A DNA stretch of 64,000 nt from a bacterium (GCA_037129835.1 JBAXUE010000002.1:66334-130333), one strand, 5' to 3'. Counted from the stretch's first letter, positions 6,454-50,635 are shown. Notes: generated by a model not told the origin, from the sequence alone. A program made the numbers and translations.

Positions 6454-7553
6454 TATTCCCTCCCGTTAGAAATGGTATAAGTAGCCCGAGATATTCGCCT
6501 AAATCGATCTCTTTGGAGATTGAGTAATATCGTCGTTTCTTTTACAACCCTTCGTTTCAATACCTCTATTATAATATCGTCTTTATGCATAGGTTCGCCA
6601 GATGTAATTAATATTTCTGCTATTACATCCTCTACCACGCCAGAAGTATAACCCCACTCCTTGAGCGCATAGATACCTCGACCGATTAAAATAAATCTGT
6701 CATCACGTATAAGTTCATTGTGTACGGCTTGTCTGGTAACGGTTTTTTTCTTAGTTCCAACATCTTGAATCTTTTTTGATATTTCAGAATAATGAAGAGG
6801 TTTTTTGTGTTTCTTTAAGATGTAATATGTTTTATCCTTAATACTTTTAGGATTAATTTCACGCCATTTGGTAAGGCCGAAGTGTCCTGCTTCGGTTTTG
6901 ATGATTTCCTTAGCGGTCGATAATATCGCGATAATATTTTTAGTATCTGTATTTGCTTCAGGGATAGTCATTTTTATTTCTCGTATAAGCTTTACTTCTT
7001 CTATGGGATTTTGTTCTTTTTCGAGGATACTAATAGCTGCAGCACTAATCGTTTTAATTAAGGGTATTGTAATTGGTTCGACAAAATACGATTTTTTAAA
7101 GTTATCAGCGTCAGAGAGCGTTGAGATGTTGTTACTGCAAGAGATCAAAAAACTTAGTTGATATCGTTGTTTTGTAGTAACCACAGCGGTGAAAATATCC
7201 TTTTCTAGGTCGCCAGAAACGATGATGCCACCGTTATTGATTATAATATCTTTAATGATTATATATATTTCTTGAGCTCGCATGTCGGTTTTGCCGAAGT
7301 CGCGAAGCTTACCAATGGCGTTCTTCTCTATTTGTCGTACGCGTTCCCTAGTAATGCCTAGACTCTTACCTATTTCTTCGAGAGTTTTTGGTTTTAGGCC
7401 ATCAACACCAAAGCGTTCGCTCAACACTTGTCTTTCGCGATCTTTTTTTATTTTTGCAGAATTCAAAAAAAAATTAACCTCGTCTGTTGCATTAAATTTT
7501 GCAACCGAAGGTATCTCTACTGTATTCGTGTTTTTTTCTTGTTTTCTAGGCAT
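6453..7553 (-). CDS. Sigma-70 region-4 HTH plus C-terminal HARE-HTH domain protein (sigma-factor-like DNA-binding regulator)
   Basis: LSERFG…[28 protein letters not shown] matches sigma region 4.2. C-terminal YSEISKKIQ…[17 protein letters not shown] matches the HARE-HTH of the RNAP delta subunit. Its stop overlaps the start of the downstream ATPase. Confidence 0.55.
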
Positions 7554-15718: not shown

Positions 15719-15997
15719 CTAGTTGGTAAAGCCAACGTGCTTGGTATTTTCTTCTGCTTGCTCTATCTTAACTCCAAAACCGCTTTCATACTGTTCTATA
15801 TTGGTTTTGAGTGCCTCGTAGAGCCTTTTGGTGTGTCCTGGTGACATTATTATCCTTGAGAGCAACATTCCTTGGTTCTGGAAGATATTAATGAAATCTA
15901 GGGTAAATTCTTCTCTAGTATGTCCGATCATCGCGACATTGGCATAGTTTCCCTTCAGGGTGGCGTCATCGGCTTTTATTTGTACTTGTTGTTCCAT
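15719..15997 (-). CDS. DUF3467 family small protein
   Basis: 92 aa. The pattern GNYANVAMIGHTREEFTLDFINI…SRIIMSPGHTKRLYEALKTNIEQYE matches my recollection of the DUF3467 consensus. Confidence 0.55.
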   Translation of the reverse strand: MEQQVQIKADDATLKGNYANVAMIGHTREEFTLDFINIFQNQGMLLSRIIMSPGHTKRLYEALKTNIEQYESGFGVKIEQAEENTKHVGFTN

Positions 15998-16017
15998 AGT
16001 GTCTCCTTTTCTCTCTT

Positions 16018-16103
16018 CGTCATTCTGAACCGAGTGAAGAATCTAGGATTGTATCTGGATTCCTGCTTACCGCAGGCAAGCTTCTTTCCGACTCAGGATG
16101 ACG
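16018..16103. repeat. 86-bp GC-rich MITE/REP-like element (GTCATCC family) with imperfect terminal inverted repeats
   Basis: The ends CGTCATTCTGAACCGAGTG and, reverse-complemented, CGTCATCCTGAGTCGGAAA are inverted repeats. An internal CCTGCGGTAAGCAGG hairpin is present. 45 of 48 nt are identical to the copy at 19816-19863 in opposite orientation. Confidence 0.65.
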
Positions 16104-16122
16104 ATTTGGGGGTGTTAAATTA

Positions 16123-18852
16123 TTATTTTGATACTAATTTCTCTGCTACTAGTTGGGTTATTCTCTTTGGAGGTTTATTTCTAGCTTTAAATGTTTCTTG
16201 AACCAAAAGATAGAATAAAGCGATAAATATTGCTATTGCCCAGGCAGAGAAGTTAAGCGGTGCCATGCCAGCGAATTTCTGGAGAAAAGGAACGTAAATT
16301 AATAAATTTACAAACATAAAAGACACGGCCAGTCCTATCCAGACTCTTTGTGAACCAAGTAGTTTCCATACTGGTTTTCTGGCTGACCGTATAGAAAAAG
16401 CGTTGGCATATTGGCACAGGGCCATGGTGGCATAAGTGACAGTAGTGGCCGCAATATATGTTTCGTTATTCGGAAAAGCACTCCCCCAACGCCAACCATT
16501 TAGATATCCATATATGCAAAATCCCGCCACCGAAAAAACACCCAGCATTATACCACTCCTTACGATGTAGTAGATAGTATCTGTACCAAAGAGGATATCC
16601 TTTTTGTCTCTTGGCGGTTTTGACATCACATCATCCTCTTCTATATCGCCTGCAAGTGCGAGAGCCGGAAAAGCCTCTGCGCAGAGGTCGATTAATAGTA
16701 TTTGGATAACAAAAATCGGAGGCAAGCCGATAACTAGCCCAAAAACAACAGCAGTGAACTCCGCCATATTTGCAGTAAAGACATATTTTGTTGCTTTTTT
16801 GATATTGTCATAGACGATTCTGCCCTCTTTTACCGCCCAAACAATAGAAGAAAAACTGTCGTTCAGCGAAACCATTTCTGCAGCTTCTTTGGTAACATCT
16901 GTTCCTGTCAGCCCCATCGCTACGCCAATATCCGAGGTCTTTAGAGCCGGAGCGTCATTGACGCCATCGCCTGTGACCGAGACGATATTTCCATGTGCTT
17001 GTAGTACTTTCACTAGCCGCAGCTTGTGGATTGGGTCTACCCGAGAGAATATTACATCTCCAGTTTCGATAATCTGATATAGTTCATCGTCTTTCAATTG
17101 ATTTAGTTCATTACCGTCGATGACGCGCGGATCTATGTTCAGCTTGATTCTCTTACCTACGGCTGCTGCTGTCAGGCCATAGTCGCCAGTCGCCATTATT
17201 ATCTTTATTCCAGCTTCTTTAGCGATTCTGACAGTTTCTGCTACATCTTCTCTTGGTGGATCGATAATACCAAGAAGTCCTAAGAAAATCAGGTCAGAAT
17301 CGATTGTACTGCCATCCATAGGCTTATAGGCAGAGGCTATTACTCTCAGCGCATCCTTGGAATATTCGTCATTTGTTTTTTCGATATCTTTTCTATCAGC
17401 TGTAGTTAGTTCGACTGCTTTGCCACCCTTAAGTATTTTTGTACATTTTTGTAAGATAACCGCAGGCGCCCCTTTGACGTATACCGTCTTTTCACCTTTG
17501 TAGTCGACTGCCTTGGCCATGAATTTTCGTTCTGAAGTAAAGGGTATTTCCTCTACACTTTTCGCTTCCCTCTGCATCGTATAAGTATCTAGTCCTGCCT
17601 TTTCTGCTGCCACAAGCAGAGCGATCTCGGTTGAGTCACCGATATAATCTGGTTTGTGATGATTTTTTGTATCGACTTCGGCATTATTGGAAATAGTTAC
17701 AGCTTGAAACAATATATTAGTTTCATCCAGACAGCTTCTGTTGCACAGTTTTCCTTCACGGGTGATTTCCCCGTCGAGACTATATCCCACGCCCTTTATA
17801 TGATAATTTTCGTTATTAAAGTAAATCTCTTTTACGGTCATCTGGTTCTTGGTTAGGGTGCCTGTTTTGTCAGTAATGATGTAGTTTGCCTCACCTAGGG
17901 TTTCCACTGCCGAAAGTCTGCGGATAGCAGCCTTTCTTCTGGTCATTTTTTGGATGCCGATCGCAAGTGCGATAGACACCGTGGCTGGTAAACCCTCAGG
18001 GACAAGAGAAGATGCTACTCCGATGGCAAAACGAAAAGATTCTAGTGCGTCAAAGTGACCCTTTGCTACTGTATCGACTACGAGCAGGATGAGAACGACC
18101 CAGAAGGTTGCTTTGGCTACAGTCTTGGCAATCCGGTCTATCTCTATTTGTAGCGGTGATTTTGATACCTTTTGGGTCGAGGTTATTTTGGCAATTTTAC
18201 CAAAGCTAGTTTCCATTCCGGTGGATACCACCACACCGATACCGTTACCAGAGATTACGTCAGTTCCCATAAATACAGAGCCTGTTACATCGACTACGTT
18301 TCTCTCGTTCTCCTCTGTTACCATCGCTACTTTGGATTGTGTTTCAGATTCTCCTGTAAGTGCTGCATCATTCGTTTCTAACTCATTTGCAGATATTAGC
18401 CGGATGTCTGCTGGTATCTTCATTCCCTCGGAAAGAACAATAATGTCACCGGGTACGATATCCATGGCGTCGATAGTCTGGCGGTCATTGTCTCTGATAA
18501 CGGTTGCAGACTGAGCGACAAATTTCTTAAGAGCGTCTATCGCTTTATCAGCTTTGTATTCTTGGAAAAAACCAATAGTGCTATTGGCAATCACAACTAA
18601 AAAGATGACAATTGCATCTTTAGGTGCTCCTAGAATATATGCGAGACCGGCGGCCGTCAGAAGAACTATCGCTAGAAGGTCAGTGAATTGGACAAGAAAT
18701 TTGACTATATATGGAGTTCGTTTTTGCTGTACTAGCTTATTGTGGCCGTATTTATTGAGACGCGTTGTAACTTCTGCGCTCGAAAGACCTTTGTCAGTCG
18801 TCTTTAGAGTATCTAATACTTTAGTAATATCGTCATAGAGCAATGAATTCAT
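16123..18852 (-). CDS. P-type cation-transporting ATPase (P2-type, Ca2+/Mg2+-like)
   Basis: Cation_ATPase_N-like start, phosphorylation site DKTGTLT, hinge GDGVNDAPAL, and about 10 TM helices. Confidence 0.9.
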   Translation of the reverse strand: MNSLLYDDITKVLDTLKTTDKGLSSAEVTTRLNKYGHNKLVQQKRTPYIVKFLVQFTDLLAIVLLTAAGLAYILGAPKDAIVIFLVVIANSTIGFFQEYKADKAIDALKKFVAQSATVIRDNDRQTIDAMDIVPGDIIVLSEGMKIPADIRLISANELETNDAALTGESETQSKVAMVTEENERNVVDVTGSVFMGTDVISGNGIGVVVSTGMETSFGKIAKITSTQKVSKSPLQIEIDRIAKTVAKATFWVVLILLVVDTVAKGHFDALESFRFAIGVASSLVPEGLPATVSIALAIGIQKMTRRKAAIRRLSAVETLGEANYIITDKTGTLTKNQMTVKEIYFNNENYHIKGVGYSLDGEITREGKLCNRSCLDETNILFQAVTISNNAEVDTKNHHKPDYIGDSTEIALLVAAEKAGLDTYTMQREAKSVEEIPFTSERKFMAKAVDYKGEKTVYVKGAPAVILQKCTKILKGGKAVELTTADRKDIEKTNDEYSKDALRVIASAYKPMDGSTIDSDLIFLGLLGIIDPPREDVAETVRIAKEAGIKIIMATGDYGLTAAAVGKRIKLNIDPRVIDGNELNQLKDDELYQIIETGDVIFSRVDPIHKLRLVKVLQAHGNIVSVTGDGVNDAPALKTSDIGVAMGLTGTDVTKEAAEMVSLNDSFSSIVWAVKEGRIVYDNIKKATKYVFTANMAEFTAVVFGLVIGLPPIFVIQILLIDLCAEAFPALALAGDIEEDDVMSKPPRDKKDILFGTDTIYYIVRSGIMLGVFSVAGFCIYGYLNGWRWGSAFPNNETYIAATTVTYATMALCQYANAFSIRSARKPVWKLLGSQRVWIGLAVSFMFVNLLIYVPFLQKFAGMAPLNFSAWAIAIFIALFYLLVQETFKARNKPPKRITQLVAEKLVSK

Positions 18853-18967
18853 AAATATATTTTATGCTATATATAGATAATAATGAAGAGAAATAAATAC
18901 AAATGGAGAAGGTCCGCGCCGGGAAGACGCTTTATATAGCTACCTTCTCGTTGCGGACCTCTTGGAC

Positions 18968-19342
18968 CTAGTCTTCGACCTCATCGATCCCGAGCATCGC
19001 TCTCGCGACTTCGATATCGGGTGCCAGGTCGAAGTTGTTGGTGTACTTCACCAACTTCTTAGAGACCTTCTCGTCCTCGGGGACTACGATCACAAACGGA
19101 ATGTGATCATTCATCAGGTACCGACCAAAGCTGTAGATACGGCCGATAGCCGCGCTACAAAGCTTGGTGACCATTGCGAGGTCGAGAATGACTCCGGCCT
19201 TGCGGGCCTTTATCAGAGTCTTGTCGAACTCGAGTCGGAGAACCGGCTCGACACTGTCGTCGAGATTTCCTCCGAGCTTCAGGATCACGGCCTTGTGGCC
19301 GTTACCTGCTTCGAACTTTTCGATACTGTGTACACAATGCAT
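18968..19342 (-). CDS. STAS domain protein (anti-sigma-factor antagonist SpoIIAA-like) in GC-rich module
   Basis: AVILKLGGNLD…GVILDLAMVTKLCSAAIGRI matches the STAS pattern v.l.G.LD…viDls.v.fiDSsGlg.l. Strong SD GAGGGGGA 4 nt upstream. Coding GC is visibly higher than in neighbouring genes. Confidence 0.55.
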   Translation of the reverse strand: MHCVHSIEKFEAGNGHKAVILKLGGNLDDSVEPVLRLEFDKTLIKARKAGVILDLAMVTKLCSAAIGRIYSFGRYLMNDHIPFVIVVPEDEKVSKKLVKYTNNFDLAPDIEVARAMLGIDEVED

Positions 19343-19351
19343 ATATCCCCC

Positions 19352-19666
19352 TCAGTCGGTTTCTAGTATTGCCGGGTTTTCGGAAAAGAACCATGAACCC
19401 CACAGCTCTCTCTTGACACCTACTTGCAGCGAATGTACCCACATTCCCCCTATGGGGATTTCGAAAGAGGGAAAGAAATCGAGTTCGATCTCTCCCTGCC
19501 AAACCACTTTCTCACGGTCAACGATATCGTAGATGACAAGTGAGTCACCGGTCTGGAGCAAGTGCAGGCCATCATAGCCGCCTTGCCTTCCTTCTTCTTC
19601 GAAGGCCCAGAAACCTCCTTCGGTTCCGGTCTCGAAGTAGAAATGTAACGTACCCACAAGTTTCAT
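19352..19666 (-). CDS. Hypothetical 105-aa protein (GC-rich), first gene of STAS two-gene module
   Basis: Start re-assigned to MKLVG, which has SD GGAGGTG 6 nt upstream. The longer ORF prefix overlaps repeat elements. No recognisable motif. Stop lies 9 nt before the STAS gene. Confidence 0.45.
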   Translation of the reverse strand: MKLVGTLHFYFETGTEGGFWAFEEEGRQGGYDGLHLLQTGDSLVIYDIVDREKVVWQGEIELDFFPSFEIPIGGMWVHSLQVGVKRELWGSWFFSENPAILETD

Positions 19667-19711
19667 GTGGCTCACCTCCCAAACGATGTTATCGTGATTG
19701 AGACAAAGAGG

Positions 19712-19740
19712 ATTATACAACATAATGAGTGTTCTGTAAA
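19712..19740 (-). promoter_or_regulatory. Near-consensus sigma-70-type promoter TTTACA-N17-TATAAT
   Basis: On the - strand: TTTACAgaacactcattatgttgTATAAT, positioned about 45 nt upstream of the 105-aa gene start. Confidence 0.5.
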
Positions 19741-19758
19741 GATAAACATATACTCCCC

Positions 19759-19863
19759 AGTCATCCATGGCCCGCTTTCGTCATCCTTGCGAACGCGAGG
19801 GTCTCTTTTGGCAACGTCATCCTGAGTCGAAACGAAGCTTGCCTGCGGTAAGCAGGGATCCAT
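19759..19863. repeat. Cluster of three GTCATCC-family repeat units (second terminus of the inverted pair)
   Basis: AGTCATCCATGG, CGTCATCCTTGCGAACGCGAGGGTCTC and CGTCATCCTGAGTCGAAACGAAGCTTGCCTGCGGTAAGCAGGGATCC. The last unit is 45/48 identical to the inverted copy at 16.06 kb. Confidence 0.65.
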
Positions 19864-20230
19864 GTCCACTCTCCTTATCGTTCGAATTCTAATGAGAACT
19901 ACAGATACAGGTTATATGTAGTTTTCATAGGATCTACGTAATCCAACCATCAGTTCGAAAAGAAAGAGAGTAAAGTAACGAAGTTATAATAAATAACTTC
20001 CGGTATCGGCTTGTTGTTATTTATTATATTTGAGCTACTGCAACGAATGATACTTTAAAGAATCTGTTAGGTTGGGCTTTTTGCACCACTTTTATTAAAA
20101 AAGTGGCATATATTATAATATAACGTTTAAAAGATATTCGCTAAAGTCGTAATTGCTCGACCTCGAAGATAGTCGAGTACACGGTACCAAGGCGATTTTT
20201 CATTGGGATTAACGCTTAAATATACCGCCC

Positions 20231-20335
20231 CTTTGTCATCCCTGGTCGCACTTGTCCTCCAGTAGCTTGTTAGCGAAGTAGGAACCCCAGTCTGCCCGAG
20301 CCGTACGCTCGTGTCGGCCAGGGGGATCTCTCTAG
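20231..20335. repeat. Extended GTCATCC-family repeat (TGTCATCCCTGGTCGCAC…GGCCAGGGGGATCTC)
   Basis: Shares the GTCATCCCTGG…CCAGGG(G)GATCTC termini with the copies at 21.28 and 34.77 kb. GC-rich relative to the flanks. Confidence 0.45.
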
Positions 20336-20619
20336 TTCCCTTTTATAAATTCCAAAAGTTTCCTTTTAGTTTCCTCTGGGTCATTCGTATATATAAAGAT
20401 ATACTGTCTCGTCGTATTCCCACGGACGACGCATTTAAACCCACTATCGATGTCGAGAAGCTTGATGTTGCGTATTCCCCTGCCGATAACCTTGATTTCA
20501 CCGAGAGAAATCTTACTCACTTCTGGATATTTGGATGCAGCATCGACAAAATCCTCCGCAGCATCGATGATGGTGGTGTGACTGCCGGCATATTTGCTGC
20601 CAGAGCGGTGCGGACTCAT
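20332..20619 (-). CDS. Hypothetical 95-aa protein, translationally coupled (ATGA overlap) to upstream metallopeptidase-like gene
   Basis: ORF with 4-nt overlap to the preceding gene's stop. No confident family assignment. Confidence 0.4.
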   Translation of the reverse strand: MSPHRSGSKYAGSHTTIIDAAEDFVDAASKYPEVSKISLGEIKVIGRGIRNIKLLDIDSGFKCVVRGNTTRQYIFIYTNDPEETKRKLLEFIKGN

Positions 20620-22356: not shown

Positions 22357-22431
22357 AGTAAGATTATATATGGTTTATGGTTTAGTGTCAACTATAAACT
22401 ATAAACTATTAATCAAATAATATTTCTGGTC

Positions 22432-22617
22432 TTATCGTATTACCCCTTCTCTTTTCTCGGCTTCTTCAAGGATTTCGTTGATTCCTCCATCAGATACGAG
22501 GAATTTGAAGGGCTGTATCAGCCTCTCGCCTTTTTTGGTGATGACTGTAGCAGTTTCATTCTTCATATTTACCTTTACTACTGTGACTTGGTTCTCAAAA
22601 TAATCAAATACTGTCAT
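22432..22617 (-). CDS. Hypothetical 61-aa protein, 8 nt downstream of DUF2130 gene
   Basis: Short ORF tightly coupled to the upstream gene. No motif. Confidence 0.3.
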   Translation of the reverse strand: MTVFDYFENQVTVVKVNMKNETATVITKKGERLIQPFKFLVSDGGINEILEEAEKREGVIR

Positions 22618-22625
22618 AATGCCCC

Positions 22626-24428
22626 TTACTTCTTATCGAGTATTTTTACATTTTTTTTAGCATAGTCAGCAGAGAGCATTTTGATCCCCGTATCTTTAAA
22701 AGAAACTCGAATTTCATCATCAGATATTCCCTCTACTTCGCCTATTCCGAAATCAGGATGACTGATAAGATCCCCAACTTCCAAGAAAGTTTCCGACTCT
22801 TCATCGATGTGTTCTACCACAGGTTCTTCGTCTGACCTATCTTCTACTCCTTTAGTATTTCCACTAAATATCGCTCGAAGTATTTTTTCTTCTGACGACT
22901 GAATAGCTTTTTCCTCTTCTACAGAAACAACTGTTTTTTCTACTTCTGTAACAGGTTTCTGGAAGTCATCTCCACCAGGAAGCTCTAGTGCCTTTATCTC
23001 AGGTAGGGCTATGTGACCACCAATATCACCATACATTCCTACAGTATTTGTGAGTACTCTGCTAAGCTGCTTTTCTCTCTCACACCATATCTTTTCGAAA
23101 GCGTTTCGCTCTTTGCGTATACCACTTTCCATAGCTCCAAAAGCCTCTACTATGGCCTCTACCCTTTGTTTAAACTCATTGCCCGTAAGGTATGTATATA
23201 GGTAGTCCATCTTGTCGTTCTTGTTGACTGCCAAGGCCTTCTCTCTATAGACATCCACCAGGCCTTTTCTCAGCACTGTAGCGAGTGCAATAGCATATTT
23301 TAACTCACATACCCAAATCTTTTCTATTTGTACGAATCCATGAGCATCTCCAGGCATAGCTGCTGTTACTATCACTCCGATATCTGCCTTTATAGCCCTC
23401 ATATCTTCTTTTAACTTATCTACCCAACCTGCACTCCAAGACTTGGTTTGCTTGGATTCCCAAGCTATTTTGCCACACAGAGCACCGGCTTTGTTTTGTA
23501 CTAGCTGTACCACATCAGCACCGTTTACACCCTTTGGTACTGGCGCGATAGCGTCAAAAGGAAAAGCGTCGGTTAGCACTTGTTCTAGCTCGAGCTCCTG
23601 AACTTCGCCTTGGGTTTGCATGGAGCCTTGCTCCAGCTTCCTAGCTAGATCGTCCTTTGCCCTGCTGACATTCGATAGCTTCATCTCTAGCTCAGCAATC
23701 TTTTTGTGCTGTTGCTCTTCGGCCTTTCTACCCGCTTCTTCTTGAATCTTCTGACGCTCCTCGTCTAGCTGTCTCATCTTCTCTAGCTCAAAGCTCTGCT
23801 TGTCTTCCTCTAGGGTAATCTTTTGCTTTCGAAGTTCCAGCTCTTTTTCCTGAGCTTTACGGAGCTTCTCGTCCTTTTCATTCATTTGCTCTTGGAAACT
23901 ACGTTTCTCTAGCTCCAGCTCTTTTTGAGTTTCGTCGGCTAGCTCTTTTTTGAGCTCTAGGCGATAGGCCTCAGTCTTCTCGGCGTATTTCTTCTCGACT
24001 TCGAGCTCTATCTTGATTTTTTCCTCTTCTAGCCTAGTCTTTTCTTTTCTGAGCTCTATTTCACTCTCTTGAGCTTTTTCGAGCTTTTCATTTTTTTCCA
24101 AAATTAACTGCTCAAAATTATGTTTTTCTAGCTCTAGCTCTTTTTTTGCCTCTATTGATAATTCTTTTTTGAGTTCTAGCCGATAATTTTCTATCTTTTC
24201 GGCATACTTTATCTCAGCCTCTAGTTCTATCTTGGTTTTCTCTTTTTCTATCTCAGATTCTCTGGTGGCCAGAAGCCTATTAGTCTGCTCTAGCTCATCT
24301 TTTAGCTTTTGCTGTTCACTACTTAGCTCTTTGCGAACCTTTAGTTCCATCTGCTCTTTTAGGATGTCGTCGATGTCTATATCCCAACCGCATTTTGGGC
24401 ACTTAATGTTTTGTTCTGAATCTGTCAT
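22626..24428 (-). CDS. DUF2130-like protein: N-terminal Zn-ribbon, long duplicated coiled coil, conserved C-terminal alpha/beta domain
   Basis: A CPKC…C start, then about 250 aa of E/K/L heptad-rich sequence containing two ~73-aa near-identical blocks. The C-terminal region (AIAPVPKGVNGADVVQ…IWVCELKYAIALA) resembles DUF2130. Confidence 0.5.
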   Translation of the reverse strand: MTDSEQNIKCPKCGWDIDIDDILKEQMELKVRKELSSEQQKLKDELEQTNRLLATRESEIEKEKTKIELEAEIKYAEKIENYRLELKKELSIEAKKELELEKHNFEQLILEKNEKLEKAQESEIELRKEKTRLEEEKIKIELEVEKKYAEKTEAYRLELKKELADETQKELELEKRSFQEQMNEKDEKLRKAQEKELELRKQKITLEEDKQSFELEKMRQLDEERQKIQEEAGRKAEEQQHKKIAELEMKLSNVSRAKDDLARKLEQGSMQTQGEVQELELEQVLTDAFPFDAIAPVPKGVNGADVVQLVQNKAGALCGKIAWESKQTKSWSAGWVDKLKEDMRAIKADIGVIVTAAMPGDAHGFVQIEKIWVCELKYAIALATVLRKGLVDVYREKALAVNKNDKMDYLYTYLTGNEFKQRVEAIVEAFGAMESGIRKERNAFEKIWCEREKQLSRVLTNTVGMYGDIGGHIALPEIKALELPGGDDFQKPVTEVEKTVVSVEEEKAIQSSEEKILRAIFSGNTKGVEDRSDEEPVVEHIDEESETFLEVGDLISHPDFGIGEVEGISDDEIRVSFKDTGIKMLSADYAKKNVKILDKK

Positions 24429-24514
24429 CTTATCTCCTTATTCTTTTTAGCATTTATTAATAGCTCCTGCATTATACACCCCAATAATGCCAAAAGTGCC
24501 CATTTACGAAAAAA

Positions 24515-24757
24515 TTAATCAAAAAGTATAAAAGGATTCATCTCCGCCGGTGTTTTCCAGCGTATTTTATACTTCTTCCTAAGTATTTCTTTTTTCTTAT
24601 GCCAAAAGGTATGGCAATATCCCAAATCACCTTCTTTGATTGGCGAATCTTTCAACGCATCCGTGACTTCATTATTGATTTTTGCGAAAATATCACGATA
24701 CCTCGGGTCTCGCTCTATTGGATCGTTAGCTATGTCGTCATCGTACATATTAATCAT
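24515..24757 (-). CDS. Hypothetical 80-aa protein
   Basis: ORF only. Basic C-terminus. Confidence 0.3.
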   Translation of the reverse strand: MINMYDDDIANDPIERDPRYRDIFAKINNEVTDALKDSPIKEGDLGYCHTFWHKKKEILRKKYKIRWKTPAEMNPFILFD

Positions 24758-24768
24758 CTTTGTTCTTC

Positions 24769-25110
24769 TTATTCCGGAGCTTGAATTGGCTTCGCTTCTC
24801 GTCTTTTCTTTATGTAGCTAACTAGGTTAATTATATCTACAACGAATGACCCAAGCAAAATCACTACGAAAAAGAATAGACCAAGTGCATAAGAGATGGC
24901 ATCACCCCAGGCCTGGTTTGGTAATGTGCGTATATAGGTTCCGAATAGAAAAAATCCGACGGCTACTACGACGCTAGTTATCTTTAGACCTATTGATAGA
25001 TCTCCGAGTTTTTTCCCGGTCTTGATATAGATAATGATCGAAGGTGCGACCATAGCCGCGATAGCAAGCAAGAGTATGAATAGCCCAGTAATTAGACCCA
25101 TAAGCACCAC
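24769..25110 (-). CDS. Hypothetical small membrane protein (3 TM)
   Basis: Three hydrophobic helices and a basic C-terminus. Confidence 0.4.
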   Translation of the reverse strand: MVLMGLITGLFILLLAIAAMVAPSIIIYIKTGKKLGDLSIGLKITSVVVAVGFFLFGTYIRTLPNQAWGDAISYALGLFFFVVILLGSFVVDIINLVSYIKKRREAKPIQAPE

Positions 25111-25146
25111 CCTCCAGACGCGATACGTAACGATTTTGTTATGATA

Positions 25147-26121
25147 TTACTTTTGTACATGTTCCTCTCCTTTTGCATGAATTATATTTTCCATATTATC
25201 ATACAGATAAACAAAATATTTTTCTATTTCATTCATTTTATTTGGTAACATATTTTTTGTAAGAGCTGCCGATTCTGCAAAAAACTCTTCGAAATATTCT
25301 GCATATTCAAGAATAAAGTCGTCAGTGAACTCTCCCTTAATTATACATTCATCATAGAGTGGTTTGATCGCCTTTACTCTGGTCTTTAGATATGGGGTAA
25401 AGGGATTATCTATTAGATATCCCATCCCTGGTGGGTTGTAATACATATTGCCTTCGTCATCTTTGATAAAGAAGAACTGTCCGAATTCGGTATTTGCTAG
25501 TATTCCTCGTTCTAGTTGAGCGCCAGTCCCGTTTTCTGTAGCGTAAAGATTTTTAAAATAAAAATGTCCGATTTCATGTGCAAGTAGATATTCGAGTAGC
25601 GCCTCTTCTTTGTTATCTGCTTCTTTTACTACATCTGGCATCTCGTATGGATAGTCATAGGTATCAAATAGCTTTATATCGCCAAAGTGCTCGCTTTCTC
25701 TGTCGGAAATGGCATGTGCCCGTACCCTCAACCACTCATCACCCTCAGGTAGCTCGTTGTTTGCTTTGGCTTTTTCGTATTCTTCCCTGTTATAAAGCTT
25801 CTTTTCATTCTCTATTCCTGGGGTGTAGACATACATTATTACATTATCATAGATTATTTTTGATATACCGACTTTTTTAAAATCCTCTAATTCGTAATTT
25901 CTCGCGATGAACTCCAAGGCGCTCTCTCCTAGATTCTTGTTTTCTTCAAATCCTTCGAAACCGAGATATGCTCGAAAATCATCTAGCTTCTCCTTTGATA
26001 TTTCATCATGAGTTTCCGTATAGACACTACTAGTAGGCGCACTTTCTTTAAGTTTTGTTCTTTCCCACAGCTTACTAGCCTCACGCTCAGCAGGTCCTAT
26101 TGGTAATGGTATATGTTCCAC
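25147..26121 (-). CDS. Hypothetical cytoplasmic protein with HExxH (AHEIGHF) zinc-binding motif
   Basis: HEIGH motif in the middle of an acidic 324-aa protein. No other recognisable domain. Confidence 0.4.
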   Translation of the reverse strand: MEHIPLPIGPAEREASKLWERTKLKESAPTSSVYTETHDEISKEKLDDFRAYLGFEGFEENKNLGESALEFIARNYELEDFKKVGISKIIYDNVIMYVYTPGIENEKKLYNREEYEKAKANNELPEGDEWLRVRAHAISDRESEHFGDIKLFDTYDYPYEMPDVVKEADNKEEALLEYLLAHEIGHFYFKNLYATENGTGAQLERGILANTEFGQFFFIKDDEGNMYYNPPGMGYLIDNPFTPYLKTRVKAIKPLYDECIIKGEFTDDFILEYAEYFEEFFAESAALTKNMLPNKMNEIEKYFVYLYDNMENIIHAKGEEHVQK

Positions 26122-26140
26122 TATTATCCTTTCTTTGTAT

Positions 26141-26812
26141 TTATTTCTCTTTCGTCACCAAGAACGGAAAAACTCTGTTCATTTCATCGTTCCGAAGGAT
26201 AAATGCCGCCTCGAGGAAAGTATACAGTAAATCTTTTGTATTTTTCAGTACATCAGCACTACAAAAGACGACGAAATCAGCTTCGTTTATCTCTGAGGGC
26301 GATTGGATGTGGATCTTGTTTCTCAAGTTCTTGAGCTGTTTCAAATCATTTCGATAAAAGGCAAATGACAGCCCGAATGTCTGCTCCTGCGCAGACTTAT
26401 AGAGTAAGCTCTTAAAATCATGGATATCGTCATAGCTGGCACCTGTTTCTTTGTGCTGGATATACAGAATAGACTCTATTATTAGTGCCGATATCAGAAC
26501 AAATGTCTTCACATTCTGCCCATAGAGAGAGCTGGTGAGATATAGCTGCTTGGTGCATTCGTCTAGATAGTGAAGATATTGGAGATTATAGGCGATGTTA
26601 CTAAAAGCAGCATACTTTGGGTCATCATCAGAAAATTCGTAATCTATCAGCCGTGGGAATATAGTACTGCGATAGAAATCTATTGAGTTTGGCAGAAACT
26701 TGTTCGAACCCTCCTCTTTGGAACAAACCCGACACAAGATATTAGGCTTGTCTGGATTGTACAAGTCCTGCTTTACAAAGCCTGAATTGCTGTGTTGTTC
26801 TGTTTTAGTCAT
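26141..26812 (-). CDS. Hypothetical protein at the edge of defense island (N-terminal CxxC)
   Basis: 223-aa ORF with an N-terminal CRVC pair. Helical C-terminus. Confidence 0.4.
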   Translation of the reverse strand: MTKTEQHSNSGFVKQDLYNPDKPNILCRVCSKEEGSNKFLPNSIDFYRSTIFPRLIDYEFSDDDPKYAAFSNIAYNLQYLHYLDECTKQLYLTSSLYGQNVKTFVLISALIIESILYIQHKETGASYDDIHDFKSLLYKSAQEQTFGLSFAFYRNDLKQLKNLRNKIHIQSPSEINEADFVVFCSADVLKNTKDLLYTFLEAAFILRNDEMNRVFPFLVTKEK

Positions 26813-26873
26813 TTTTCCCTTTTATAAAAGAATACATTGTTCTATCTTACTTTGTAAAAAATTATTAACTAAA

Positions 26874-28229
26874 CTAGTCTCTGCCACCCCTTTGTCTATT
26901 ACAATATCGGTGGACTAATCTGGCGTTTGATAGCTTGGTTTCTCCACCTCGCCAGTAAAACTCAATATGATCAACCTCAGAATCGTCTAAAACACGTATT
27001 TTTTGACCACATATTTTACAGGTTGAATCAGTGTCAAAAAGTTGCTTTTTCTCGTCGTGTGAATAGTTTCTTGTCTGTGACTTGGAATAATCTACGATTT
27101 TCCTCAAAGATTCTAGCCATTTCTCAAATCTGTATTGCACATTTTCTGGCTTATCTGTTGATGACTTCAAGGAATCTTCAAATTTCTTGACAGCTGTCAT
27201 TAAGTGTAAAAGTTCTTCGCGAATAGAATCAAGGTGAGGGATAATTTCGTTTTTTTGATACATCGTGAAACCCCACATTACGATGTCAAATAAGCCTTTG
27301 TTTATTTTTGTATTTTCCCACTTTCCGTTTGAGTCAGATTCTTCGCCTACAACAAACCTACGAAAAGCATTGTCACCAAATACTGAGCGAGTTAGGTCAA
27401 CAGATTTTTTAAAAACCTCACGAAGTTCTTTTGCTTTTTCTTCATTTAGATTTTGGTTATTATGCATTTCTTGATTTAGAAACTGTCTCATGGGTGCTTT
27501 GTATTTTAAGTATGAGTTATTATAAAAAGCGAAAAATCGTAATAAAAGCTCTCTATCAATCATTCTTATGGACATAGCTGGTGATTTTAATAATGTTTGA
27601 TATTCTTTATTTTCGGCAAGCTCGATTAGTAAGTCGTTATATTTTCCACGGTAAATACAGTTTCTGAGTTCCTGGTCGTTCAGCTTCACTGCGCCAGTAT
27701 TTAGTCTTTCGAAAACCTCAAATCTAACATTGATATCAGAATCCTTTTTGATTCTGATAAATGGTATAAGATAAGAATCAACTTTTCGCTGTGTTATTTT
27801 GTCTAGTTCCTTAAATGATTTCCTGTTTAGTCCTGTCAAAACCTTTAATCCCGAAAGGGCAAATTTTTCGTGCTTGTCTTGAAAGTACCCGTCCTTAAAA
27901 GAAAAGATAGAAATTAGTCTTTGTTGCCCGTCTATTACTGATTGGGTACCGTCATCTTCTTCGGCAGTGTATATTACTGGTATCGGGACTCCCAAGAGAA
28001 TAGATTCTATCAGTCTACTAGCTTTGCTTTTATCCCAGACATATCCTCTTTGAAAGTATGGTCTTACATCAAGTTCCCCTGCCTTGTAATCAGAATATAA
28101 GTCTTTTATGGCTCTACTGGGGTTGTCAAAGGTAATTCTTCTTTCATCCTCAGGTATATCAAAAACCAGTGGTTCGTTGTCATTATTGTCTTCTTCAAGA
28201 ATAACGTCATTATTATCTATTACCGTCAT
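26874..28229 (-). CDS. GmrSD-like type IV restriction protein: DUF262 (ParB-like NTPase/nuclease) N-domain + HNH/DUF1524 C-domain
   Basis: VIDGQQRLISIF is the DUF262 hallmark. The C-terminus CKICGQ…DHIEFYWRGGETKLSNARLVHRYCN is an HNH motif. Confidence 0.8.
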   Translation of the reverse strand: MTVIDNNDVILEEDNNDNEPLVFDIPEDERRITFDNPSRAIKDLYSDYKAGELDVRPYFQRGYVWDKSKASRLIESILLGVPIPVIYTAEEDDGTQSVIDGQQRLISIFSFKDGYFQDKHEKFALSGLKVLTGLNRKSFKELDKITQRKVDSYLIPFIRIKKDSDINVRFEVFERLNTGAVKLNDQELRNCIYRGKYNDLLIELAENKEYQTLLKSPAMSIRMIDRELLLRFFAFYNNSYLKYKAPMRQFLNQEMHNNQNLNEEKAKELREVFKKSVDLTRSVFGDNAFRRFVVGEESDSNGKWENTKINKGLFDIVMWGFTMYQKNEIIPHLDSIREELLHLMTAVKKFEDSLKSSTDKPENVQYRFEKWLESLRKIVDYSKSQTRNYSHDEKKQLFDTDSTCKICGQKIRVLDDSEVDHIEFYWRGGETKLSNARLVHRYCNRQRGGRD

Positions 28230-28285
28230 AATTCTCCTTTACTTTGATCTATCGTTTTTGCTTATCAAGTTTTTTCATTGGTTCG

Positions 28286-29449
28286 CTATTTATTTCCCTT
28301 GGCACGGTTATGTGTTTTACAAAGCATCTCACAGTTATTGATATCTGTGGCGCCACCTTTACTCCATGCTGTAACATGGTCAGCATCCATTTCGGTAAGA
28401 CTCCAGATTTTTGTCTTGTTGGCGTCGTGACCGATTACGCAATTCGGACAATTTGAAATGCCTTTAGATTTAGCGGTCGTAGTTTGTGACGAATATACCG
28501 CTTTTTTAGTTGCCTCATCAAAAACACGAACTTCAAGTAGTTTCTTTTCATTAGACCCACCTAGAATATATTCAAATATTCCCTTTCGATTTTTTATGTA
28601 TGGGTCTCCATAAAGCTTTTGTACGGCCAATGACACTTTTGCAGGATCATAGGCTTTTGTATGAAATTTTTTATAAAGTCGACCCCAATCCAGGCCTCGC
28701 ATTTCACTTTCAACATCTATAAATACACCAGAAACCCATTCTATTACGCTTTTAAAATATGCTTTTAACTCAGTGATATTGTTATCAAAGCGGTGACGAC
28801 TCATATATTCGCCGTTATTACCACAACTAATCCAGTCTAAGGCTCTCTCTAGAAATTCCTGTCTGTTGGCACTGCCAGTTACATAAGCACTCCATTTTTG
28901 AATGTTGGCATTTTGACTATTACTGAATTCCTCTTTACCAAGTGTGACAAATGGACCAGAATAAACCGCATTTAATAGTTCTTGATTATTTAGCGGTACA
29001 CCGGCAATGTTTATGGTTTTGAACCACTCTTTTATTTCACTTTCTTCGCCCTCGCATTCGTATATAAGAAGCTCAGCGTTCATGATTTTAGCCTGCTTAT
29101 CTGAAGCAATTCCACTGAAGTATTGTTCCATGCCGTTTTCGTCTTTTATGGCAAATTTGTTATAAACGAATCGTCCGATACTAGTGATACGTTGTTGTCC
29201 GTCCAATACTTCTAAGTTGTCAGTGCTCACTTTGTTAAAATATATTAAGCCCAGCGGATAGTCTTTGAGTAATGAGTCAATGACCGCGACGTCTTTTTTA
29301 CCATCAGCATAGATGTAGTTACGTTGATACTCTGGCTGAATAGTGAGCTTGCCAGAGAGTCCGAACAAACCCTTGCCTTCATGCTGGTTATACACAAATC
29401 CTTCACATATATTTCTTACGGTTATGTTAGTTACTAAAGTAGTTTTCAT
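28286..29449 (-). CDS. Second DUF262 + HNH (GmrSD-like) protein, paralog of upstream gene
   Basis: [14 protein letters not shown] (DUF262). The C-terminus CPNC…[25 protein letters not shown] is an HNH motif. Confidence 0.75.
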
Positions 29450-30648
29450 GCTATACCTTTCTTGTGTTTGATTAAAATCCTAGCGAATGGAACCACAACA
29501 GTTTCATCTTTTATCATATATAAATCACCGTTCACCGTTCCTCTTTTTTGCACTTCTTTCCGATACTTTTTATGCTCAGGTTTATACGGTTTGACTCCGA
29601 TGGATAAGCCCAGGTTTGCTATTCCCAAACCAATAATATCAAATTGTTCAGGAGAATATTTGTCAAGGAAACTAATTGGCACGCCCATAATACCCTTAAA
29701 GTCTCCAGGAATATGTTTAACGAAAGGAACTTCTATTGCATTAAAATTATCATAATTATCAAAAGATCTTTTAGTGCCAAATTTTATAACGTCTGACAAT
29801 TTCATTAATGGTAAGAATTCGTGAAGCCTTCCGTGGTCAAGATTAGTAAACCAGCGAACACCTTGGACTCTCGTGATGTAAACTTTCTTACCATTTTCAT
29901 CCGTCCGTATTTCGCGTACTTGCTCTAGATTGGCAATATCTTCTGGTATTTCATAAAACATTGCTCCACCATTCACTTTATGATTATTGCCAAGCCAAAT
30001 CTTGTTATCCTTAATTAATGGAAAGACTTCTTTATAAGTAATAGCGTTCATACTACCAATTATTAAGAACTTTTTTTTGTACTCAATAAGTTGTTTTAAG
30101 TACTCGCGGAACAAACTGAAAGGCGGGTTAGTTACCACTATATCAGCCTGCTTTAGTAGCTCAACACACTCGTTGCTCCGAAAATCTCCGGCTGCGTATT
30201 TATCATCGCCAAGTAAAAGCGAATAAGCATTATTGTCATGTTCTAAAAGCCATTTCACATCATTAAGGTTGGTTATGCCATCTTTATTAAGGTCTGAAAC
30301 CTCATTGATCTCAATTTTAAATGCTTTTTTATTTTTTCGATTAGAAAGTGTCTTATTTTTACCCATTTCTTCGAAACCCGGTATTTGTATCTGTGTTTGT
30401 ACAATCGGCGAACCAACGTAGCTTGTCGTTATCAACTTTTTTAAGCCAAATTCCTTAAATTTATTTGCAAAATACTTGAAGAAATTACTTTCAAATGGGT
30501 CATCGCAGTTGCAATAGACTATCTTGCCGCGAAAAACATCAGGATCGTAATCAATGTAGGCTTGGATTTCCTTCTGAATATCTTGATATTGAGTATAAAA
30601 CTCGTCGTTTTTAGTCTTTTTTGCGTTATGTAAATTTTTTTGTGCCAT
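29446..30648 (-). CDS. N6-adenine DNA methyltransferase of the M.EcoRI family
   Basis: The N-terminus …[19 protein letters not shown]…[18 protein letters not shown] and the catalytic [15 protein letters not shown] closely resemble M.EcoRI as I remember it. Its stop overlaps the downstream DUF262 gene start (ATGA). Confidence 0.8.
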
Positions 30649-30660
30649 TTAAAACCTTAT

Positions 30661-31128
30661 TTATTTTTCAAAGCAAATTGGATTAAATATCTTTTCAGGA
30701 AAATCGTTATCTCCAATTTTATATTTTAATTCACCGTTTGTTCCATGTACTGAATATTTTTCTCGATTGCGCTTTGACACAGAAATTGATTTGACTCCGG
30801 ACTGGCTAGGCCTTAACAACCTCTCAATTTCGTCATAGTTTAAGCAACAAACTCCTGCATCGTAACATACAAGTAGGACAAAAACCTTCTCAAACTTTGA
30901 TTTTAGCTCTAATAGTTTTTCGAGATGATTCTCCGAAAATGTAAAGCTCCAGGGGATTAACCGACTCTCAGTATATTTAACATATAAGCCACTTTCTCTG
31001 AGCTGAGAGAGAATCTTAAAACTAGAATTGTCATCATCAACATAATCACTAACACCAAGACATCTTTGGTCTTGAATTATTTTTAGTAAAGCTGCCCCGT
31101 AATATAGTTGATATTTAAAATTTGCCAT
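30661..31128 (-). CDS. Hypothetical 155-aa protein between Z1 NTPase and methyltransferase (candidate effector/specificity partner)
   Basis: 7-nt gap to the Z1 gene and 13-nt gap to the MTase gene. No confident motif; there is a possible acidic cluster after a beta-strand (VFVLLVCYDAG…NYDEIE). Confidence 0.4.
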   Translation of the reverse strand: MANFKYQLYYGAALLKIIQDQRCLGVSDYVDDDNSSFKILSQLRESGLYVKYTESRLIPWSFTFSENHLEKLLELKSKFEKVFVLLVCYDAGVCCLNYDEIERLLRPSQSGVKSISVSKRNREKYSVHGTNGELKYKIGDNDFPEKIFNPICFEK

Positions 31129-34688: not shown

Positions 34689-34792
34689 TGGGGCAAGACC
34701 CAGGAGGTCATCCTTACGAAAGTAAGGATGACCTCCGGAGGGTAAGAAAGAGATCCCTGGGTTTGTGACCAGGGATGACAACGGGTGTTCCC
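34689..34792. repeat. Cluster of three GC-rich hairpin repeats (GTCATCC family), BIME-like
   Basis: CCTGGGgcaagaCCCAGG; GTCATCCTTACgaaagTAAGGATGAC (a perfect 10-bp stem); GAGATCCCTGGGTTTGTGACCAGGGATGACA. Confidence 0.6.
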
Positions 34793-34976
34793 ACGAAAAA
34801 TAACTCAGTCCGCAGACCGACACTTTGAGAAATATGTATGCTGTAGCTCGGCTACTAAAAGTATTTTTAAAAGAGAGTTGTTATTTTTCTTGAACTTAAC
34901 TCCATTTTCTTTCAAGAGAAAATGGATAATAAATAATTAATAAATTTTTAGTTAGAATAAATTGGTATATTGCGAA

Positions 34977-47512: not shown

Positions 47513-47630
47513 TCGCTAAACGCTGGTTTGATCCAACGCTGTCGTCTTATGAACGACAAGAACTGATAGGACTTAACACAAACGATATTATAGTCATTTA
47601 ACGGGGTTTTGTCAATAAGCATCAATAATA

Positions 47631-50550: not shown

Positions 50551-50598
50551 TGACAATCCCCTCGTTTCTAGACGAATTGTGTAGGTACAATGTAAATT

Positions 50599-50627: not shown

Positions 50628-50635
50628 GCATGATT

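What the first reader, a model, noticed from the sequence alone, without database searches (positions are those of the whole stretch)
18968..19740. GC-rich two-gene module (unknown 105 aa + orphan STAS) with near-consensus promoter; probably horizontally acquired
Coding GC is strikingly higher than in neighbours. Both genes have strong SD sites (GGAGGTG, GAGGGGGA) and are driven by TTTACA-N17-TATAAT. The STAS (anti-sigma antagonist-like) protein has no partner kinase (RsbW/SpoIIAB) or PP2C phosphatase anywhere in the window. The co-transcribed 105-aa protein has no recognisable motif. This may be a compact regulatory or toxin-immunity-like pair imported from a higher-GC donor.
Basis: partly seen in the sequence, partly recalled or inferred. 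Interest (0 to 1): 0.5.

Follow-up and report, generated by a model that had tools for sequence, protein, structure and literature searches.

The report
Foreign two-gene cassette, hypervariable first gene
Two small, unusually GC-rich genes with their own strong promoter were probably imported into this AT-rich uncultured bacterium; the first belongs to a large unnamed protein family of ultra-small microbes and phages and differs sharply between near-identical strains, and its function is unknown.

Summary
On the minus strand, a TTTACA-N17-TATAAT promoter (19740-19712) precedes a 104-aa gene (19666-19352) and, 9 nt later, a 124-aa gene (19342-18968), followed by a terminator-like hairpin. GC3 is 0.55 and 0.70 against a background of 0.36. 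These are the 3rd-highest and highest of 55 ORFs, and the 124-aa gene uses AAG for all 11 lysines.

The 104-aa protein is not motif-less. It belongs to a family of at least 536 clusters that is absent from Pfam, NCBIfam, PHROGs, PADLOC and the PDB. The family occurs mainly in CPR bacteria, DPANN archaea and some phages. Its AF2 model is confident (pLDDT 94) and has no solved analogue.

The "STAS" call is only weakly supported (TIGR00377 E=1.7e-4, below cut-off; no Pfam hit). This protein has no detectable relatives outside this lineage.

The pair is not a conserved module: 48 other loci of the family carry no STAS neighbour. Three alleles of the 104-aa gene, with synonymous sites saturated, sit next to a STAS+ATPase tract that is nearly identical between strains.

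Best reading: a horizontally acquired, strain-variable accessory cassette, possibly conflict-related. A toxin-immunity pair is not supported. Interest is moderate.

The parts
19712..19740 (-). Sigma-70-type promoter TTTACA-N17-TATAAT that drives the cassette
   Evidence: It matches 11 of 12 consensus positions. This class of site is enriched in the window, 5 found against 0.97 expected. It is conserved in strains L001, L002, L004 and L147 while the DNA upstream of it and the gene downstream vary.
19667..19711 (-). 5' leader with the Shine-Dalgarno sequence GGAGGTG, 6 nt before the ATG
   Evidence: Read directly from the sequence. It is nearly invariant across strains.
19352..19666 (-). 104-aa gene. 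It is a member of an unnamed beta-rich domain family (ETGTEGGxWAF motif) and is hypervariable between strains.
18968..19342 (-). 124-aa gene. It is lineage-restricted and only weakly STAS-like, and it has the most foreign codon usage in the window.
   Evidence: TIGR00377 E=1.7e-4 (21 bits, cut-off 53) and TIGR02886 E=2.9e-4. PDB STAS proteins 4hyl (E=0.086) and MlaB 7ch8_K (E=0.52) are the two best hits. No Pfam STAS hit. It finds only itself among 5.8 billion proteins. GC3 0.704.
18909..18961 (-). GC-rich stem-loop followed by a U-rich stretch (18890-18908). It is a terminator-like end of the cassette.
   Evidence: RNA fold centroid -28 kcal/mol; for the whole 123-nt spacer the z-score is -2.5 and 3 of 200 shuffles fold as well. 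The simple terminator scan did not call it because the loop is too long.
19815..19871 (.). Arm of a 57-nt inverted repeat (MITE/REP-like, CGTCATCCTGAG terminus) just upstream of the promoter. Its partner is at 16047-16103, downstream of the ATPase.
   Evidence: The arms are 88% complementary. With up to 3 mismatches there are 2 matches against 0 expected. Both arms are also present in L001.
16047..16103 (.). Second arm of the inverted repeat, between the ATPase stop codon and the DUF3467 gene
16123..18852 (-). Context, not part of the cassette: a P-type cation ATPase with native composition, 115 nt downstream. It shares a nearly identical tract with the 124-aa gene across strains.
   Evidence: Pfam domains. 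GC3 0.387. 0 differences in 2730 nt against L001 and at most 2 differences in the whole tract against L147.

Best explanation
The cassette is a small, horizontally acquired, strain-variable accessory unit in an uncultured bacterium. NCBI labels the MAG only as 'bacterium'; the gene content looks CPR-like, which is inference.

Shown:
- A near-consensus promoter is followed by two tightly spaced genes and then a terminator-like hairpin.
- Both genes carry synonymous-site composition typical of a roughly 50-55% GC donor.
- Gene 1 belongs to a widespread unnamed small beta-barrel family of CPR bacteria, DPANN archaea and phages. In other genomes this family occurs alone or fused to KTSC, HTH, Xre-antitoxin C-terminal, HAD_SAK_2 or ankyrin modules.
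- Gene 1 exists as at least three deeply diverged alleles in strains whose neighbouring DNA is nearly identical.

Inferred:
- The alleles were swapped in by homologous recombination between the conserved promoter/leader on one side and the 124-aa gene on the other. They came from an external, GC-richer gene pool, and all three alleles keep GC3 at 0.52-0.62 although their synonymous sites are saturated.
- That pattern, together with the phage and conflict-system associations of the family, points to a gene under frequency-dependent (conflict-type) selection. It would act as a small nucleic-acid- or nucleotide-associated binding or sensor domain.
- Gene 2 is a very divergent STAS-like protein that was recruited locally. 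It most likely acts as a protein-binding or regulatory adaptor. It is not part of a canonical partner-switching system with a kinase and a phosphatase.

The biochemical activity of both proteins remains unknown.
For: - Composition and codon usage are outliers.
- In 46 other loci the family gene's GC tracks the GC of its locus, with a mean difference near 0. Here the difference is +0.11.
- The pair is detected only in near-identical strains. Relatives whose ATPase is 69% identical lack both the pair and the synteny.
- The family has 536 clusters and is found in 16 CPR, about 15 DPANN, 5 'Methanosarcinales' and 4-5 Bacteroidota MAGs. It is also found in T4-like and jumbo-phage-like contigs and in one BFVD phage protein (TMq 0.80).
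- Fusions: KTSC in 8 of 74 members, Xre_MbcA_ParS_C in 2 of 74, plus HAD_SAK_2 and ankyrin. Aravind's group calls KTSC DNA-binding (PMC9503650).
- Allele data: window vs L001 vs L147 give pS 0.64-0.79 and pN 0.19-0.28. The flanking STAS+ATPase tract has at most 2 differences in about 3.3 kb. The outer flanks differ by 4-10%.
- Promoter. Hairpin.
- Defence genes (an EcoRI-like methylase, two GmrSD genes) lie about 7-11 kb away.
Against: - There is no integrase, transposase or tRNA nearby.
- No 'empty site' was found in a syntenic relative, so the insertion itself is not demonstrated.
- Composition was compared with 64 kb only. A second GC3-rich ORF exists at 49829-50191, so some native heterogeneity is possible.
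- The conflict or binding role is inferred from associations only. PADLOC and PHROGs give no hit, and neighbours in other genomes are mostly housekeeping genes.
- The third allele (L147) has lost the near-invariant ETGTEGG motif and His78, which could instead mean relaxed constraint or decay.
- The mosaic pattern comes from short-read metagenome contigs, which can be chimeric between co-occurring strains.
Confidence: 0.55

Rival explanations
1. The two proteins form a dedicated interacting pair, either toxin-antitoxin/immunity-like or a mini partner-switch. In this reading the STAS-like protein binds and neutralises or regulates the 104-aa protein.
For: The genes are co-oriented with a 9-nt spacer, and the Shine-Dalgarno sequence overlaps the upstream stop codon. 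They share one promoter. Ser63 aligns with the phospho-acceptor Ser58 of SpoIIAA (plus my memory of the SpoIIAA sequence). Two family members are fused to an antitoxin toxin-binding domain.
Against: None of 48 other family loci has a STAS-like neighbour. The STAS-like protein is invariant while its neighbour differs at 30-45% of residues between strains, which is the opposite of cognate-pair co-variation. The 104-aa protein is all-beta and lacks GHKL kinase motifs. Neither protein matches a known toxin, antitoxin or defence model.
Confidence: 0.15
2. The STAS-like protein is an accessory regulator of the adjacent P-type cation ATPase, as MlaB is for MlaF or the STAS domain is for SulP transporters. 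In this reading the promoter also serves the ATPase by read-through.
For: The ATPase is on the same strand, 115 nt away. No good sigma-70 site was found in the spacer. The STAS-like gene and the ATPase share one nearly identical tract across strains. MlaB is the second-best PDB hit. Two other family loci sit next to cation transporters: L043 next to a P-type ATPase and L013 next to CorA.
Against: A strong hairpin with a U-rich tail separates the two genes. The ATPase has native composition and the STAS-like gene does not. ATPase orthologues at 69% identity have no such gene upstream. The transporter neighbours in L013 and L043 are convergent or divergent, and the category was chosen after seeing the data.
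Confidence: 0.1
3. The genes are native, and the high GC3 reflects selection on codon usage or expression level rather than horizontal transfer.
For: The promoter and the Shine-Dalgarno sequences are strong. MetK has a somewhat raised GC3 of 0.44. Another GC3-rich ORF exists in the window.
Against: The codon shift is global (AAG 11/11, CTC/CTG, GTC, ATC) and resembles a GC-richer genome, not just a preference for C-ending two-fold codons. Family members in other genomes show no intrinsic GC excess. The distribution is patchy and the alleles are replaced.
Confidence: 0.1
4. The sharp mosaic of hypervariable gene next to identical tract is an artefact of short-read assembly of mixed strains. This rival concerns the allele pattern only, not the cassette itself.
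For: All data are MEGAHIT, Logan or JGI contigs. Many contigs break exactly at the borders of the variable segments: L150 starts at the STAS gene, and L010 and L148 start 180 nt upstream of gene 1.
Against: The first two alleles recur in independent samples and assemblies: P0001 on 7 contigs and P0002 on 4. Contig L001 shows divergent, then identical, then divergent segments, which would need two chimeric switches.
Confidence: 0.1

Closest known systems
STAS / anti-sigma-factor antagonists (SpoIIAA, RsbV; TIGR00377, Pfam PF01740/PF13466)
   Same: The size is similar (124 aa). The best database matches over nearly the full length are STAS proteins. A Ser aligns with the phospho-acceptor residue.
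   Different: All scores fall below family thresholds and there is no Pfam hit. There is no cognate kinase/anti-sigma factor or PP2C phosphatase in the window. No homologues were detected outside this lineage. The fold could not be confirmed (pLDDT 36).
MlaB-type STAS accessory subunits of transporters
   Same: It is a single-domain STAS-like protein encoded next to a transport ATPase, and MlaB (7ch8_K) is the second-best PDB hit.
   Different: The neighbour is a P-type ATPase, not an ABC ATPase. A hairpin lies between the two genes, their composition differs, and the linkage is absent in ATPase orthologues.
Phage 'morons' and small genomic islets (promoter-gene-terminator units with foreign composition)
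   Same: The unit has its own strong promoter and a terminator-like end, atypical GC, a patchy and strain-variable presence, and family members in phage genomes.
   Different: It is not inside a recognisable prophage and has no integrase. It lies among chromosomal housekeeping and defence genes.
Hypervariable or polymorphic loci kept by recombination between conserved flanks (polymorphic toxin-immunity cassettes, specificity-gene swaps, DGR targets)
   Same: Deeply diverged alleles lie between nearly identical flanks with sharp borders.
   Different: There is no recognisable toxin or immunity domain. The partner gene does not co-vary. This is not a DGR: there is no reverse transcriptase and no template repeat, and the substitutions involve all four bases and the whole gene.
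KTSC-domain proteins of phages and conflict systems (PF13619)
   Same: Eight of 74 longer family members carry an N-terminal KTSC domain.
   Different: The window protein is the bare C-terminal domain with no KTSC. The function of the fused domain is undescribed.

Membership tests
STAS / anti-sigma antagonist (SpoIIAA/RsbV) | Sequence match at or above the curated family threshold | tested here: not met
   TIGR00377 scores 21.4 bits against a cut-off of 53.45, and TIGR02886 scores 20.8 against 114.75. Pfam STAS and STAS_2 give no hit at E<=1.
STAS / anti-sigma antagonist (SpoIIAA/RsbV) | STAS alpha/beta fold | tested here: inconclusive
   The single-sequence AF2 model has pLDDT 36. No homologues exist to build an alignment.
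STAS / anti-sigma antagonist (SpoIIAA/RsbV) | Conserved phosphorylatable Ser/Thr at the start of helix 2 | tested here: inconclusive
   Ser63 aligns with the Ser of 4hyl and with SpoIIAA Ser58. The alignments are weak, and the DSSG context is replaced by CSAA.
STAS / anti-sigma antagonist (SpoIIAA/RsbV) | Cognate GHKL kinase/anti-sigma factor and PP2C phosphatase encoded nearby | tested here: not met
   Precomputed Pfam hits across the whole window and its edges show none. The rest of the genome was not examined.
Toxin-antitoxin / toxin-immunity pair | The pair recurs together in other genomes | tested here: not met
   phmmer with the 124-aa protein against all ORFs of 51 family loci finds no hit. 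Pfam scans of the flanking and tightly linked neighbours of 46 of the 48 family loci show no STAS and no recurrent partner.
Toxin-antitoxin / toxin-immunity pair | A recognisable toxin, antitoxin or defence domain | tested here: not met
   Pfam, NCBIfam and PADLOC give none for either protein, and PHROGs gives none for the 104-aa protein or its family; the 124-aa protein was not scanned against PHROGs.
Toxin-antitoxin / toxin-immunity pair | The two partners co-vary between alleles | tested here: not met
   The 124-aa protein is 100% identical in strains whose 104-aa protein is 55-70% identical.
Horizontally acquired genomic islet | Composition and codon usage outside the host's range | tested here: met
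   GC3 z-scores of 4.8 and 2.6, the worst and third-worst codon fit of 55 ORFs, and a tetranucleotide outlier. Codon table. The reference is the 64-kb window only.
Horizontally acquired genomic islet | Patchy distribution among relatives | tested here: met
   Found only in near-identical strains. Absent next to ATPase orthologues at 69% identity, although synteny is lost there as well.
Horizontally acquired genomic islet | Mobility genes, a tRNA target or direct-repeat borders | tested here: not met
   There is no tRNA in the window and no integrase or transposase in the precomputed Pfam hits. The only repeat is a 57-nt inverted repeat that also encloses the ATPase.
Diversity-generating retroelement target | A template repeat, a reverse transcriptase and adenine-specific changes | tested here: not met
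   The gene has no second copy in the window. No reverse transcriptase appears in the Pfam hits. Substitutions arise from all four bases.
Unnamed 'ETGTEGGxWAF' beta-barrel family (no database accession) | Full-length significant similarity and the conserved motifs | tested here: met
   176 representatives at E<=1e-10. The motifs ETGTEGG-WAF, GD-L-I, W-G-I and W-(I/V)-H are present in the window protein.

The most novel reading that the evidence does not exclude
The unnamed ETGTEGGxWAF beta-barrel family could be a new component of virus-host or symbiont-host conflict in CPR bacteria, DPANN archaea and their phages. Here it would be held as multiple ancient alleles by frequency-dependent selection, with the orphan STAS-like protein acting as its lineage-specific switch or adaptor. 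That would make this a new kind of two-gene conflict module.
Probability: 0.15. Interest if true: 0.65.

Novelty: new member of a known kind. Interest (0 to 1): 0.37.

Why it matters
CPR and DPANN genomes are full of unnamed genes. This locus points to one sizeable family, with at least 536 clusters at 50% identity, that has three notable properties. It has a confident predicted fold with no solved analogue. It is shared across bacteria, archaea and phages. Here it behaves like a swappable, fast-turnover cassette next to a recently homogenised transporter tract. If the family proves to be conflict-related, it would add a component to the poorly known defence and counter-defence repertoire of ultra-small episymbionts. 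If not, this is an ordinary small horizontally transferred islet. Nothing here answers a long-standing open question.

Tried and rejected
- DGR hypervariation. Rejected: there is no template repeat, no reverse transcriptase and no adenine bias.
- The 104-aa protein as the missing RsbW-type kinase. Rejected: the model is all-beta and there are no GHKL matches.
- A non-coding RNA in the 666-bp upstream spacer or in the GC-rich stretch 20100-20335. No Rfam match was found at gathering level for the window, or at E<=1 locally beyond chance-level hits. The fold z-score is -0.5.
- The 63-65-aa ORF over the promoter and repeat (19672-19869), which some pipelines call a gene. Judged spurious and repeat-derived. 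A mirror ORF arises at the other repeat arm.
- The 138-aa start used in the NCBI record. Rejected in favour of the 104-aa start, because of the Shine-Dalgarno position, the overlap with the promoter and the N-termini of homologues.
- Structure of the STAS-like protein. The AF2 single-sequence run failed, so no fold search was run on it.
- The afdb50 fold library was unavailable.
- A search for the STAS-like protein in phage, plasmid and IMG/VR collections found nothing significant.
- A tblastn search of the INPHARED phage collection with the 104-aa protein found nothing.
- Genomic context of a family member fused to the Xre-antitoxin C-terminal domain (P0017). No RES toxin lies next to it.
- The first attempt at search for related loci, using the broad alignment, failed. 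It was repeated with a narrower alignment.

Full report
WHAT IS THERE

The window is 39% GC and nearly all of its genes are on the minus strand. Between a DUF2103 gene (20332-20619) and a P-type cation ATPase gene (16123-18852) lie two small minus-strand ORFs. One is 19352-19666 (104 aa) and the other is 18968-19342 (124 aa), and they are 9 nt apart. The promoter TTTACA-N17-TATAAT sits at 19740-19712 and matches 11 of 12 consensus positions. Sites of this quality occur 5 times in the window against 0.97 expected, and 4 of them are on the coding strand. So this promoter type appears to be used by the organism.

GGAGGTG lies 6 nt before the first ATG, and GAGGGGGA overlaps the first gene's stop codon. 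After the second gene there is a GC-rich stem-loop (18909-18961) followed by a U-rich stretch. Its centroid energy is -28 kcal/mol, and the whole spacer has a z-score of -2.5. I read this as a terminator-like end of the unit.

The NCBI record starts gene 1 at 19768, giving 138 aa. The 104-aa start fits better with the Shine-Dalgarno position, the promoter and the N-termini of homologues.

COMPOSITION

The bin 19001-19500 has the highest GC of all 128 bins, at 0.518. GC3 is 0.704 for the 124-aa gene and 0.552 for the 104-aa gene, against a length-weighted background of 0.355. That gives z = 4.8 and 2.6, ranks 1 and 3 of 55 ORFs. The two genes also have the worst and third-worst fit to the window's codon usage. 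Their 700-nt windows are about 4 sd out in tetranucleotide distance.

GC2 is normal (0.30-0.33), so the shift is at synonymous sites and is not an amino-acid effect. The 124-aa gene uses AAG for 11 of 11 lysines (background 31%) and CTC/CTG for 11 of 13 leucines (background 22%), and it prefers GTC and ATC. That is the usage of a GC-richer genome, not a simple expression bias. The reference for all of this is the 64-kb window only.

THE 124-aa 'STAS' PROTEIN

Pfam gives no STAS hit at E<=1. NCBIfam gives TIGR00377 at E=1.7e-4 and TIGR02886 at E=2.9e-4, both far below their cut-offs. The two best PDB sequence hits are STAS proteins: 4hyl at E=0.086, covering residues 20-119, and MlaB 7ch8_K at E=0.52. 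In these alignments Ser63 falls on the phospho-acceptor position of SpoIIAA. The numbering of that SpoIIAA residue comes from my memory.

AF2 without an alignment failed (pLDDT 36). The protein finds only itself among 5.8 billion proteins. It finds nothing in IMG/VR or in plasmids, and only chance-level matches (E=0.2) in phage genomes.

It is a real gene. All 4 differences from strain L001 are synonymous in its frame. I rate 'divergent STAS-like fold' at about 0.65, and membership of the anti-sigma-antagonist family as not established. Precomputed Pfam hits on the public contig that contains the window show no RsbW/SpoIIAB kinase, no PP2C and no other STAS across the window.

THE 104-aa PROTEIN

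This protein is not motif-less. An exhaustive HMMER search of 1.84 billion cluster representatives finds 536 proteins at E<=1e-3 and 176 at E<=1e-10. They share the motifs ETGTEGGxWAF, Y.GLH.L..GD.L.I, W.G.I.L and G.WIH..Q.G..R..WA.WF. The domain occurs alone (100-130 aa) or at the C-terminus of longer proteins. Many members carry a Cys-rich insert after the first hairpin; reading it as a zinc ribbon is my inference from the sequences.

Of 74 longer members, 8 carry KTSC, 2 carry Xre_MbcA_ParS_C (an antitoxin toxin-binding domain), 1 carries HAD_SAK_2 and 1 carries ankyrin repeats. KTSC is called a DNA-binding domain in PMC9503650.

A pattern-based scan of one genome per species returned 44 loci. 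They comprise 16 CPR, about 15 DPANN, 5 MAGs labelled Methanosarcinales, 4-5 Bacteroidota, 1 gammaproteobacterium and 2 MAGs labelled only 'bacterium' or 'archaeon'. The search pattern biases this census. Other members lie in a T4-like phage contig, a jumbo-phage-like contig next to NAD-salvage genes, and a proteobacterium next to a staphylococcal-type nuclease.

IS THE PAIR A MODULE?

No. In 48 other family loci, phmmer with the 124-aa protein finds nothing. Pfam scans of 86 flanking ORFs and of 10 tightly linked neighbours show no STAS and no recurrent partner. The family gene often stands alone between convergent or divergent genes. Its GC follows the GC of its locus elsewhere, with a mean difference near zero, but is +0.11 here.

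STRAIN COMPARISON: THE MOST INTERESTING RESULT

The window is identical to ENA contig ERZ27300174 k141_20016. Contigs from other samples carry the same locus with different versions of gene 1.

Against L001, the ATPase has 0 differences in 2730 nt, and the 124-aa gene has 4 synonymous differences, 3 of them in its first 40 nt. The DUF2103 gene differs by 8% and the DUF3467 gene by 4%. Gene 1 is only 68% identical in DNA and 69% in protein.

A third allele, in L147, is 55% and 61% identical in protein to the other two. It has lost the ETGTEGG motif and His78. Its STAS+ATPase tract again differs from the window at no more than 2 positions.

Pairwise pS is 0.64-0.79, which is saturated, against roughly 0.2 in the flanking genes. 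pN is 0.19-0.28. All three alleles keep GC3 at 0.52-0.62. The promoter and leader are conserved. The DNA upstream of them varies through presence or absence of MITE-like repeats.

The substitutions involve all four bases and the whole gene. There is no second copy of the gene and no reverse transcriptase nearby, so this is not a DGR.

My inference is that the alleles are far older than the strains, or were imported from outside. They would be exchanged by recombination between the conserved leader and the 124-aa gene. The STAS+ATPase tract itself appears to have been homogenised recently.

One caveat applies. All of these are short-read metagenome contigs, and several break exactly at the variable borders. 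However, two of the three alleles recur in independent assemblies.

WIDER LINEAGE

ATPase relatives at 69-71% identity (L062, L124) have a GreA-like gene directly upstream and entirely different flanks. So the pair is not conserved in the wider lineage. These loci are not a true empty site either, because synteny is lost as well.

VERDICT

The horizontal-transfer interpretation is supported, although the insertion event itself is not shown. The STAS label is weak. The idea of a toxin-immunity or regulatory pair is not supported.

The best explanation is a promoter-equipped accessory cassette of foreign composition. Its first gene belongs to a large, unnamed family found in CPR bacteria, DPANN archaea and phages, and it turns over between strains. 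That pattern is typical of conflict-related genes, but no activity can be assigned.

Rivals remain open at low probability: an interacting pair, a STAS regulator of the ATPase, native codon bias, and assembly artefact.

Interest is moderate. The finding adds an uncharacterised family with a confident, unmatched predicted fold and a tidy population-genomic pattern. It provides no mechanism and resolves no open question.

Noticed in passing
window 49829-50191 (-), with the neighbouring ORF 50197-50631 (-): This is a second compositional island. A 120-aa ORF has GC 0.50 and GC3 0.61, and the second-worst codon fit in the window. It has no Pfam hit and is not called as a gene on the public contig. 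No Rfam match was found.
   Followed up: partly
window 16047-16103 and 19815-19871; window 34783-34939; L001 1058-1226; L147 25-97: MITE/REP-like intergenic repeats with CGTCATCCTGAG-type termini. One pair forms a 57-nt inverted repeat that encloses the ATPase and the cassette. A second repeat family is present upstream of the promoter in strains L001 and L147 but lies elsewhere (about 34.8 kb) in the window. So these elements differ in position between strains.
   Followed up: partly
window about 15850-19300: This tract is nearly identical (1-2 differences in about 3.4 kb) to strains L001 and L147. It covers the ATPase and most of the 124-aa gene, while the flanks differ by 4-10%. That looks like a recent gene-specific sweep or recombination tract.
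   Followed up: yes
L147 186-500 (ENA ERZ27300155 k141_381785): The third allele of the 104-aa gene has a degenerate ETGTEGG motif (LEIGTGYS) and His78 changed to Gln. This suggests either functional divergence or decay.
   Followed up: partly
window about 22600-31000 (-): A defence-type gene cluster lies 3-11 kb upstream of the cassette. It contains DUF2130, two GmrSD_N/HNH genes and an EcoRI-like methylase.
   Followed up: no
L043 944-3670 and L013 1322-2413: Two other family loci also lie next to cation transporters. L043 has a P-type ATPase 37% identical to the window's, transcribed divergently, and L013 has CorA, transcribed convergently. This may be chance, and the category was chosen after seeing the data.
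   Followed up: partly
window 22363-22391 (-) and 47587-47615 (-): Two perfect TTGACA-N17-TATAAT promoters. The first ends only 7 nt before the ATG at 22356, which suggests a leaderless or very short-leader transcript.
   Followed up: no
window 3457-7553 (-): A Sigma70_r4 + HARE-HTH protein (366 aa) lies next to a 998-aa DUF8128/TrwB-like ATPase. The family locus L013 contains a similar DUF8128/T4SS-coupling-type protein.
   Followed up: no
window 19672-19869 (-) and 15920-16201 (+): ORFs of 63-93 aa that share the peptide CLPQASF..TQDD are generated by the two repeat arms. Some public annotations call the first one a gene, but it overlaps the promoter and is probably spurious.
   Followed up: yes
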